A stretch of DNA of 64,000 bases, taken from NCBI RefSeq assembly GCF_009914755.1, contig NC_060940.1, one strand, 5' to 3'. This DNA comes from the human T2T-CHM13v2.0 reference genome, Homo sapiens. Below, one piece after another: positions 53,816 through 54,585 of the stretch. Made by a program: the position numbers and the translations under genes. The notes under the pieces are model-generated. The model saw only the letters and a program-made list of their open reading frames with translations. It did not search any database and was not told where the DNA came from. Positions within the stretch are counted from its first letter, which is position 1, and each line of letters opens with the position of its first letter.

Positions 53816-54585
53816 TTCCCACGCCGCAACTCACCCGTCTCCCCACCCCGCGCCTCGCCCGTCTCCCCACGCCGCGCCTCGCCCGTCTCCCCACGCCGCG
53901 CCTCGCCCGTCTCCCCACGCCGCGCCTCGCCCGTCTCCCCACGCCGCGCCTCGCCCGTCTCCCCACGCCGCGCCTCGCCCGTCTCCCCACGCCGCGCCTC
54001 GCCCGTCTCCCCACGCCGCGCCTCGCCCGTCTCCCCACGCCGCGCCTCGCCCGTCTCCCCACCCCGCGCCTCGCCCGTCTCCCCACCCCGCGCCTCGCCC
54101 GTCTCCCCACCCCGCGCCTCGCCCGTCTCCCCACGCCGCGCCTCGCCCGTCTCCCCACGCCGCGCCTCGCCCGTCTCCCCACGCCGCGCCTCGCCCGTCT
54201 CCCCACGCCGCGCCTCGCCCGTCTCCCCACCCCGCGCCTCGCCCGTCTCCCCACGCCGCGCCTCGCCCGTCTCCCCACGCCGCGCCTCGCCCGTCTCCCC
54301 ACGCCGCGCCTCGCCCGTCTCCCCACGCCGCGCCTCGCCCGTCTCCCCACGCCGCGCCTCGCCCGTCTCCCCACGCCGCGCCTCGCCCGTCTCCCCACCC
54401 CGCGCCTCGCCCGTCTCCCCACCCCGCGCCTCGCCCGTCTCCCCACGCCGCGCCTCGCCCGTCTCCCCACCCCGCGCCTCGCCCGTCTCCCCACCCCGCG
54501 CCTCGCCCGTCTCCCCACCCCGCGCCTCGCCTGTTTCCCGGTCCCACGCCTTGCCTGTTTCCCCACCCCCCGCCTTACCTGTTTC
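53816..54585. repeat. 24-bp CpG-dense VNTR, ~31-32 copies (cgcctcgcccgtctccccac[g/c]ccg), overlapping the KLHDC4 exon 7 donor
   Basis: Direct inspection; 8-aa periodicity in four ORFs. Confidence 0.97.

What the first reader, a model, noticed from the sequence alone, without database searches (positions are those of the whole stretch)
53834..54585. VNTR made from the KLHDC4 exon 7 donor creates an in-frame distal 5' splice site adding 248 aa of (ARRGVGRR)n
Seen: the 24-nt unit is the exon/intron junction itself (GAAACAG|GTAAGGCGGGGGGTGGG). Internal copies carry GC in place of GT (CAG|GCAAGG, CGG|GCGAGG), but the last copy reads CGG|GTGAGT at 53834, exactly 744 nt (31 x 24) after the real donor, in phase 0 with no stop between (ORF 53811..54794). 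The one recurrent variant between units (GGG/GGC) is synonymous in this frame but changes residues in the other open frames. Inference: use of the distal donor would splice in frame to exon 8 and insert a copy-number-dependent Arg/Gly-rich tract into the propeller, chemically similar to poly-GR peptides. Any whole-unit length change keeps the frame, and GC donors could give +8n aa isoforms.
Basis: partly seen in the sequence, partly recalled or inferred. Interest (0 to 1): 0.8.

Follow-up and report, generated by a model that had tools for sequence, protein, structure and literature searches.

The report
Minisatellite grown from KLHDC4 splice donor
A 24-base repeat array in a KLHDC4 intron was seeded by the exon 7 splice junction and ends in a second good-looking, in-frame splice site, but arrays of this kind are long known and normally splice only at the first site.

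Summary
The sequence observation is correct in every detail I could test. A 24-nt array runs in register from 7 nt inside KLHDC4 exon 7 (54585) to 53818. Unit 0 carries the authentic donor CAG|GTAAGG. Units 1-2 and the 28 core units carry GC at that position. The last unit reads CGG|GTGAGT, 744 nt (31 units, 248 codons) downstream, with no stop before 53813-53811.

The coding signs carry little weight. In-frame spacing follows from a unit length divisible by three. All six frames are open across the array. One synonymous variant site is a 1-in-3 event.

The kind is already known: minisatellites whose first monomer spans an exon-intron boundary occur in F7, IFI6, CBS, LMNB2, PDGF and ABCA7. In F7 minigenes only the most upstream donor is used, and more distant pseudo-sites give exon skipping instead. 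Where pseudo-sites are used (IFI6, CBS, ABCA7), they are those one or two units away.

I read the array as an intronic, locus-specific, CpG-dense, G-skewed minisatellite whose distal donor is silent or trace-level. A +8 aa isoform from the GC site at +24 is the more credible by-product. No RNA data were available and length polymorphism was not verified. I rate it a new member of a known kind, of low to moderate interest.

The parts
54579..54738 (-). KLHDC4 exon 7 (160 nt), encoding kelch-repeat sequence and ending on a codon boundary (..YSKQ)
   Evidence: Hub annotation; sequence; translation; Pfam kelch families, with the exon end at position 22 of 50 in Kelch_6
54577..54578 (-). GT of the authentic exon 7 donor, CAG|GTAAGG, followed by G6 and G4 runs
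   Evidence: 8 of 9 matches to CAGGTAAGT and a computed U1 duplex of -11.5 kcal/mol
53818..54585 (-). 24-nt minisatellite of 32 in-register units: unit 0 spans the exon/intron junction, units 1-2 are transitional, 28 core units are identical but for one G/C site, and unit 31 is diverged
   Evidence: TRF; unit table. In the window's own genome all 28 matches to the unit (up to 1 mismatch) lie in this array, and the backwards control gave 0
54529..54554 (-). Two GC donor-like sites at +24 (CAG|GCAAGG, exon would end at 54555) and +48 (CAG|GCGAGG, exon would end at 54531), both in frame
   Evidence: 7 of 9 and 6 of 9 matches to the consensus, the mismatch including T to C at +2
53833..53834 (-). 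GT of the distal donor-like site CGG|GTGAGT in unit 31; the extended exon would end at 53835, +744 nt, in frame
   Evidence: 7 of 9 matches (8 counting G at +3) and a U1 duplex of -11.5 kcal/mol
53811..53813 (-). First in-frame stop (TAG) if the intron is read through past the array
42144..42219 (-). KLHDC4 exon 8, whose acceptor ttgcag|AGAGTT starts in phase 0 (RVKKDVDKG...)
   Evidence: hub annotation

Best explanation
This is an intronic, locus-specific minisatellite that arose by tandem duplication of the KLHDC4 exon 7 / intron 7 junction. A young, homogeneous core of 28 units then expanded, in which the donor's GT had become GC. Older, more junction-like units remain at both edges, so one strong donor consensus survives at the far end.

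In normal splicing the authentic, most upstream donor at 54579 is chosen. The whole array leaves with the 12.3-kb intron 7, and the distal site is a silent or trace-level pseudo-site.

Any effect of the array is more likely exerted in cis on the pre-mRNA or chromatin than through a 248-aa insertion. The candidate routes are its dense G-runs next to the donor, strong G skew on the non-template strand, and CpG-island-like density. The most credible protein by-product is a minor +8 aa isoform from the GC site one unit downstream.

Shown here: the anatomy, the uniqueness of the unit in the genome, and the composition. Inferred: the order of events, the silence of the distal site, and any cis effect.
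For: Anatomy. Identity to the core grades from the edges inward: units 0, 1, 2 score 19, 17, 22 of 24; units 3-30 score 24 of 24; units 31 and 32 score 21 and 12.

The unit occurs nowhere else in the genome: all 28 matches lie in this array and the control gave 0.

The frame properties are not evidence of coding: six stop-to-stop frames of 247-334 codons cover the array.

The extended internal exon would be 904 nt. It lies between introns of about 3.6 and 12.3 kb, by the hub's exon coordinates.

Precedent:
- PMC1557585 (abstract, Introduction, Results section 6 and Discussion read). In F7 IVS7, identical pseudo-donors stay unused, and pseudo-sites raised to a consensus value of 91 still do not compete. 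When upstream sites are inactivated, use of the next site falls with distance while exon skipping rises.
- In ABCA7 the cryptic donor used lies one 25-bp unit downstream, while array length tracks exon 19 skipping and lower expression (PMC5954066, passages).

None of the alternative exons in the hub's RefSeq table changes the exon 7 donor.

Composition: 82% GC, GC skew +0.54, 140 CpG with observed/expected 1.54, and 73 G-runs of 3 or more in 761 nt.
Against: - The distal site is as good as the authentic one by consensus match and computed U1 pairing.
- It is not predicted to be more buried: mean unpaired probability is 0.59 against 0.71.
- It is the only GT donor of quality downstream, so no nearer GT site would intercept it.
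- In three of the known analogues (IFI6, CBS, ABCA7) some pseudo-sites are used.
- No RNA-seq, long-read or junction data could be examined, so silence is inferred from precedent and annotation only.
- hnRNP H/G-run effects depend on context (PMC1524908, passages), so the direction of any cis effect is open.
- The array does not appear in the eVNTR tables I could search, so a cis effect has no support either. The place searched is my own estimate of its hg38 position.
Confidence: 0.75

Rival explanations
1. The distal donor at 53835 is used at a meaningful level in some tissue or genotype. That would give a KLHDC4 isoform with a copy-number-dependent insertion of about 248 aa of (ARRGVGRR)n inside a kelch blade.
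For: - The site has 7 of 9 consensus matches (8 with G at +3) and the same computed U1 duplex energy as the authentic site.
- It is in frame with no stop.
- Exon 8 starts in phase 0.
- The normal junction lies in a charged stretch, [15 protein letters not shown], which might tolerate an insertion (inference).
Against: - In-frame spacing and openness are automatic for this unit.
- The internal exon would be 904 nt long.
- F7 experiments show that upstream sites win and that distant sites give exon skipping.
- No listed RefSeq alternative exon uses it (hub table).
- The break point is at position 22 of 50 of a kelch motif, so the insertion would split a blade.
Confidence: 0.05
2. The near GC sites (+24 CAG|GCAAGG, perhaps +48 CAG|GCGAGG) are used at low level, giving in-frame +8 or +16 aa isoforms. 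This would parallel the proximal pseudo-sites of IFI6, CBS and ABCA7. It is compatible with the best explanation.
For: - The +24 site matches the consensus at 7 of 9 positions, differing at +2 and +6.
- Known analogues use exactly the pseudo-sites one or two units downstream (PMC1557585 Introduction; PMC5954066).
- An in-frame product would escape nonsense-mediated decay (inference).
Against: - GC donors are a small minority of human donors (recalled, not tested).
- The authentic GT site immediately upstream is strong.
- No listed RefSeq alternative exon ends at 54555 or 54531 (hub table).
Confidence: 0.2
3. The array acts as a length-dependent cis-regulator of KLHDC4. Candidate routes are G-runs binding hnRNP H/F next to the donor, R-loop or G-quadruplex formation on the G-rich non-template strand, and methylation of a CpG-dense block. 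The outcome would be altered exon 7/8 inclusion or altered expression, as reported for ABCA7.
For: - 73 G-runs of 3 or more, GC skew +0.54, 140 CpG with observed/expected 1.54.
- 8 G-quadruplex motifs if loops of up to 8 nt are allowed.
- ABCA7 precedent: length tracks exon 19 skipping and lower expression.
- Other minisatellites in KLHDC4 are reported eVNTRs (PMC10234305 supplements).
Against: - No strict G-quadruplex motif with loops of 1-7 nt.
- No row at the estimated hg38 place of this array in the eVNTR tables of PMC10234305 or the VNTR tables of PMC8024321.
- Length polymorphism is not shown here.
Confidence: 0.25

Closest known systems
F7 intron 7 minisatellite (37-bp unit, first monomer spans exon 7/IVS7; PMC1557585)
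   Same: It is a minisatellite seeded by the donor junction, so the authentic donor is followed by donor copies at the homologous position of later units. It is the experimental model for which copy is chosen.
   Different: F7 has 5-9 units that all carry an identical GT donor, and the 37-nt unit does not keep the frame. KLHDC4 has 32 units of 24 nt, which keep the frame. Its 30 intervening units (1-30) carry GC, so the only other GT consensus lies 744 nt away.
IFI6 (6-16) intron 2 minisatellite, as described in the Introduction of PMC1557585
   Same: The authentic donor is followed by many pseudo-sites supplied by a junction-derived minisatellite. Use of pseudo-sites lengthens the coding exon.
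   Different: [quoted passage not shown] No usage is documented for KLHDC4, and the strong pseudo-site is the most distal one. I saw IFI6 details only in that Introduction.
ABCA7 intron 18 VNTR (25-bp unit including the exon 18 donor; PMC5954066)
   Same: It is a GC-rich array of about 24-25 bp that starts at the donor. It spans 592 bp (23.7 units) in the reference, comparable with the array here.
   Different: The 25-nt unit shifts the frame, so retention of one unit gives a premature stop. Its reported effects are exon 19 skipping and lower expression with length, plus disease association. None of this is known for KLHDC4.
CBS 31-bp VNTR c.1444_1467+7(16_21) (PMC2630376; PMC1557585 Introduction)
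   Same: The repeat unit spans the end of an exon and the first bases of the intron, and it is polymorphic in copy number. Two pseudo-sites are reported as used.
   Different: The unit is 31 nt (not a multiple of 3), with 24 nt of it exonic. In KLHDC4 only 7 nt of unit 0 are exonic.
Arg-rich dipeptide repeat proteins (poly-GR) of the C9orf72 GGGGCC expansion
   Same: The hypothetical insert would be half arginine and a quarter glycine, so chemically basic and low in complexity.
   Different: It is an octapeptide repeat (ARRGVGRR), not a dipeptide. It would be made by splicing within a normal reading frame, not by repeat-associated translation, and its existence is hypothetical.

Membership tests
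Minisatellites whose first monomer spans an exon-intron boundary (F7, IFI6, CBS, LMNB2, PDGF, ABCA7) | Head-to-tail array of a unit of about 10-100 bp | tested here: met
   TRF: period 24, 31.6 copies, 96% matches, no indels
Minisatellites whose first monomer spans an exon-intron boundary (F7, IFI6, CBS, LMNB2, PDGF, ABCA7) | The first monomer contains the last exon bases and the authentic donor | tested here: met
   Unit 0 (54585-54562) has 7 exon bases plus GTAAGG..., and is 19 of 24 identical to the core in register. No random 24-mer of the window among 200,000 draws (those in 53700-54700 skipped) reached 19
Minisatellites whose first monomer spans an exon-intron boundary (F7, IFI6, CBS, LMNB2, PDGF, ABCA7) | The donor sequence is reiterated at the homologous position of later units | tested here: inconclusive
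   Of the 31 later units, only unit 31 keeps GT (CGG|GTGAGT). Units 1-30 carry GC there: CAG|GCAAGG, CAG|GCGAGG, and 28 copies of CGG|GCGAGG. The reiteration is therefore degenerate, not exact as in F7
Minisatellites whose first monomer spans an exon-intron boundary (F7, IFI6, CBS, LMNB2, PDGF, ABCA7) | Copy number varies between people (VNTR in the strict sense) | not testable with these tools
   Only one assembly is held. No row for this place turned up in the VNTR supplements searched, and two files of PMC8275641 were cut when stored
Minisatellites whose first monomer spans an exon-intron boundary (F7, IFI6, CBS, LMNB2, PDGF, ABCA7) | Splicing outcome known (upstream site only, or proximal pseudo-sites also used) | not testable with these tools
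   No transcript data were available. No alternative exon in the hub's RefSeq table has another exon 7 donor
Poly-GR / dipeptide-repeat proteins | Strict Gly-Arg dipeptide repeat produced from a hexanucleotide expansion | tested here: not met
   The frame reads ARRGVGRR from a 24-nt unit
CpG island (thresholds recalled: over 200 bp, GC over 50%, observed/expected CpG over 0.6) | Length, GC content and CpG observed/expected ratio | tested here: met
   761 nt, 82% GC, CpG observed/expected 1.54, against 0.44 for the whole window. Methylation state is unknown

The most novel reading that the evidence does not exclude
In some tissue, or on alleles where the authentic donor is weakened or the array is short, the distal GT site or retention of the array is used. 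KLHDC4 then carries, or ends in, a copy-number-dependent Arg-rich (ARRGVGRR)n tract. That would be a splicing-made analogue of toxic arginine-rich repeat peptides in an ordinary gene.
Probability: 0.05. Interest if true: 0.6.

Novelty: new member of a known kind. Interest (0 to 1): 0.25.

Why it matters
If the distal or GC sites were used, array length would set the length of a basic insert in a kelch propeller. That would be a direct route from repeat length to protein variation.

As it stands, the locus is a natural test case for 5' splice site choice. One strong authentic donor, thirty GC copies and one equally strong GT copy 744 nt downstream all sit in frame. It extends the F7/IFI6/CBS/ABCA7 series to a case where distance, rather than site strength, is the only difference between the two GT sites.

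I found no paper linking KLHDC4 to this array. KLHDC4 with VNTR gave 0 papers. KLHDC4 with 'tandem repeat' and 'splicing' gave 2, judged unrelated from their titles and abstract starts in the listing. KLHDC4 with sQTL gave 1, seen as a listing only. KLHDC4 with 'alternative splicing' and 'isoform' gave 4; I opened one of these, and its only KLHDC4 mention is an alternate-acceptor event.

Tried and rejected
- Coding signal from the open frame: rejected. All six frames have stop-to-stop stretches of 247-334 codons over the array.
- Coding signal from the synonymous G/C variant: rejected as evidence. It is one site with a 1-in-3 prior, and unit variants reflect duplication history.
- Dispersed repeat family: rejected. 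The unit is confined to this array in the genome.
- Known structured RNA: none. Rfam gave 0 matches at E up to 1 over 53300-55000.
- Strict G-quadruplex motif (loops 1-7): 0; with loops up to 8 there are 8.
- Internal acceptor sites: no AG in the array has more than 25% pyrimidines in the 20 nt upstream, so exonisation of part of the array is unlikely.
- RNA accessibility as a discriminator between the donors: not informative, 0.71 against 0.59.
- Pfam match of the repeat tract to T4 Gp5_trimer_C (E 4.3e-9): rejected as an artefact of an 8-residue Gly/Val periodicity.
- Catalogue searches for this array:
  - PMC10078293 supplements have one KLHDC4 row, a GT microsatellite elsewhere in the gene.
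  - PMC8096271 has none.
  - PMC8275641 has none, but its files were cut.
  - PMC8024321 has one coding VNTR row at the 5' end of the gene.
  - PMC10234305 has KLHDC4 eVNTR rows; the six passages shown name two other arrays.
  - The hg38 place I searched (about chr16:87,726,050-87,726,930) is my own estimate. I anchored it by eye on the motifs of those two arrays against TRF rows of the window. File 1 of PMC10234305 and file 1 of PMC10078293 were not searchable.
- MaxEntScan and SpliceAI are not on hand. I used consensus matches and a ViennaRNA duplex with the recalled U1 5' end instead.

Full report
WHAT IS THERE. All coordinates refer to the minus strand, which is the strand of KLHDC4. Exon 7 (54738..54579) reads [53 protein letters not shown] and ends on a codon boundary at CAG|GTAAGG. 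It matches kelch families in Pfam, and the exon end falls at position 22 of 50 of the Kelch_6 profile, that is, inside a blade. Exon 8 begins in phase 0 behind ttgcag| at 42219 and reads [25 protein letters not shown].

Tandem Repeats Finder reports a single array at 53818-54575: period 24, 31.6 copies, 96% matches, no indels, score 1341. Cutting the strand into 24-mers in register from 54585 (7 nt inside the exon) gives the following series.
- Unit 0 is GAAACAGGTAAGGCGGGGGGTGGG, the junction itself, 19 of 24 identical to the core.
- Unit 1 has CAG|GCAAGG (17 of 24).
- Unit 2 has CAG|GCGAGG (22 of 24).
- Units 3-30 are 28 core units, GAGACGGGCGAGGCGCGG[C/G]GTGGG, identical except at one site (19 C-type, 9 G-type).
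- Unit 31 is GAGACGGGTGAGTTGCGGCGTGGG (21 of 24).
- Unit 32 is a degenerate half-unit (12 of 24).

The two in-register 24-mers upstream score 6 and 10, and the two downstream score 4 and 4. In 200,000 draws of random 24-mers from the window (those falling in 53700-54700 skipped), none reached 19 matches and the maximum was 17. The junction is therefore truly the first monomer of the array.

The GT of unit 31 lies at 53834-53833. An exon ending at 53835 would be 744 nt (31 units, 248 codons) longer, and the frame stays open to TAG at 53813-53811, reading [16 protein letters not shown](ARRGVGRR)n..VSCGVGK*.

HOW MUCH OF IT IS MORE THAN CHANCE. The array and its origin at the junction are far beyond chance. 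The features offered as signs of coding are not.
- Any site at the homologous position of any unit is in frame, because 24 is divisible by 3.
- The unit holds no stop in almost any register. Stop-to-stop frames of 247-334 codons cover the array in all six frames, and within the 761 intronic bases five of the six frames have no stop at all.
- The G/C variant is Gly/Gly in the exon frame, Gly/Ala in the +1 frame and Gly/Arg in the +2 frame. That is one site with a 1-in-3 prior, and variants between units record duplication history rather than selection on a protein.

THE DONORS. By match to CAG|GTAAGT the authentic site scores 8 of 9. The distal site scores 7 of 9, or 8 if G at +3 is allowed. 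A ViennaRNA duplex with the recalled 5' end of U1 gives -11.5 kcal/mol for both. The other GTs of the array (11 copies of GGG|GTGGGG, 19 of GGC|GTGGGG) are also in frame but weak, at 3-4 of 9. The GC sites score 7 of 9 (+24, CAG|GCAAGG), 6 of 9 (+48) and 5 of 9 (28 core copies). Predicted accessibility does not separate the two GT sites: mean unpaired probability is 0.71 against 0.59 in a context of 150 nt on either side. No AG in the array has a pyrimidine tract; the maximum is 25% pyrimidines in the 20 nt upstream.

WHAT THE ARRAY IS. With up to one mismatch, the core unit occurs 28 times in the window's own 3.1-Gb genome. All 28 lie in this array, and the backwards control gave 0. It is thus a locus-born minisatellite and not a dispersed family.

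Its edges resemble the junction. Both unit 0 and unit 31 have T at unit position 9. Units 0-2 have A at positions 3 and 6, and the half-unit 32 has A at position 3. The core is homogeneous. I infer an old duplication of the junction followed by recent expansion of a variant unit that had GC for GT. The alternative, that the terminal T arose by C-to-T change at a CpG, cannot be excluded.

The intronic part is 82% GC with GC skew +0.54 (G on the sense, non-template strand). It holds 140 CpG (observed/expected 1.54, against 0.44 for the window) and 73 G-runs of three or more. There is no strict G-quadruplex motif, but there are 8 with loops up to 8 nt. Rfam finds nothing. The window as a whole is crowded with minisatellites: TRF gave 32 rows at score 150 or more.

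COMPARISON WITH WHAT IS KNOWN. The architecture is a described class. [quoted passage not shown] It lists IFI6 (6-16; 25 pseudo-sites, the two most proximal used constitutively), CBS intron 13 (two pseudo-sites used), LMNB2 and PDGF (only the authentic site used) and F7.

For F7 intron 7 the authors show the following with 50 constructs (abstract, Results section 6, Discussion).
- The pseudo-sites are functional but never compete with the most upstream site, even when raised to a consensus value of 91.
- When upstream sites are inactivated, the next available one is used.
- The farther away that next site lies, the more exon 7 is skipped instead.

ABCA7 intron 18 is another member. Its 25-bp unit begins with the donor GT, and a cryptic donor one unit downstream is used. 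Array length correlates with exon 19 skipping and lower expression, but not with use of the cryptic donor (PMC5954066, passages). The CBS repeat is written c.1444_1467+7(16_21), that is, exon bases plus seven intron bases (PMC2630376, passages).

KLHDC4 fits this class, with two differences. Its unit keeps the reading frame, and all intermediate units have lost GT, so the only strong pseudo-site is the farthest one.

MOST LIKELY MECHANISM. On these precedents the authentic donor at 54579 should be chosen essentially always. Use of 53835 would need three things: the upstream site to be bypassed, a 904-nt internal exon to be defined between introns of about 3.6 and 12.3 kb, and thirty GC copies to be passed. 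None of the alternative exons listed for the 16 RefSeq transcripts in the hub's table alters the exon 7 donor.

I therefore read the distal site as a silent or trace-level pseudo-site (confidence about 0.75 for the whole reading). If the authentic donor were lost, I predict use of the +24 GC site or skipping of exon 7 (160 nt, a frameshift), rather than the 744-nt extension. A low-level +8 aa isoform from the +24 GC site is the more credible protein by-product (about 0.2).

A length-dependent cis effect through G-runs, R-loops or methylation is possible (about 0.25) but has no direct support. hnRNP H effects depend on context (PMC1524908, passages).

WHAT I COULD NOT ESTABLISH. No transcript data were available, so usage is inferred and not measured. 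Length polymorphism is unverified.

The catalogue searches gave these results.
- PMC10234305 lists KLHDC4 eVNTR rows (31, 20 and 4 occurrences in three files). The six passages shown name arrays at hg38 chr16:87734905-87735060 and 87715816-87716378. By motif these correspond to the window arrays at about 62673-62794 and 43464-44034 (compared by eye).
- Using those two arrays as anchors, this array should lie near chr16:87,726,050-87,726,930. No row with such a start was found there, nor in PMC8024321. An earlier, less accurate estimate also gave nothing.
- PMC8275641 files were cut when stored.
- PMC8096271 has no KLHDC4 row.
- PMC10078293 has only a GT microsatellite row for KLHDC4.

Absence from tables of significant associations does not show that the array is monomorphic or inert.

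Full-text searches found no paper on this array. KLHDC4 with VNTR gave 0 papers. KLHDC4 with 'tandem repeat' and 'splicing' gave 2, judged unrelated from the listing's titles and abstract starts. KLHDC4 with sQTL gave 1, seen as a listing only. KLHDC4 with 'alternative splicing' and 'isoform' gave 4; I opened one of them, and its only mention of KLHDC4 is an alternate-acceptor event.

VERDICT. I rate it a new member of a known kind, with interest of about 0.25. The boldest reading still open is a copy-number-dependent Arg-rich KLHDC4 isoform or read-through product in some tissue or genotype, which I put at about 5%.

Noticed in passing
window 62673-62794 and 43464-44034: Two other KLHDC4 intron minisatellites (units of about 30 and 39 nt). 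By motif they match arrays reported as KLHDC4 expression-associated VNTRs in GTEx tissues in the supplements of PMC10234305 (hg38 chr16:87734905-87735060 and 87715816-87716378). The match was made by eye.
   Followed up: partly
window 53362-53459: An imperfect 38-nt repeat (2.7 copies, 68% matches) about 360 nt downstream of the array in the same intron.
   Followed up: no
whole window: The window is unusually rich in minisatellites: TRF gave 32 rows at score 150 or more. Examples are 8735-9345 (33 nt x 18.5), 13900-14388, 28106-28555, 31854-32264, 33632-34136, 39428-39706, 46274-46810, 60544-61024 (44 nt x 10.9, 97%) and 61374-61595.
   Followed up: no
P0001 residues 136-186 (window 53811-54737, minus strand): The hypothetical (ARRGVGRR)n tract hits Pfam Gp5_trimer_C, the phage T4 gp5 C-terminal trimerisation domain (E 4.3e-9, above the curated cut-off). 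I read this as an artefact of an 8-residue Gly/Val periodicity and not as homology.
   Followed up: partly
window 53818-54575: At 758 bp the array would rank among the longest repeats of the window, yet it is absent from the hub's list of the longest masked stretches. It seems not to be masked in NCBI's file. The tools here show all bases in one case, so I could not check this.
   Followed up: no
window 54562-54578: The authentic donor is followed at once by G6 and G4 runs (GTAAGGCGGGGGGTGGGG). hnRNP H binding at G-runs within donor sites is described for NF1 and TSH-beta (PMC1524908, passage). Relevance here is untested.
   Followed up: no
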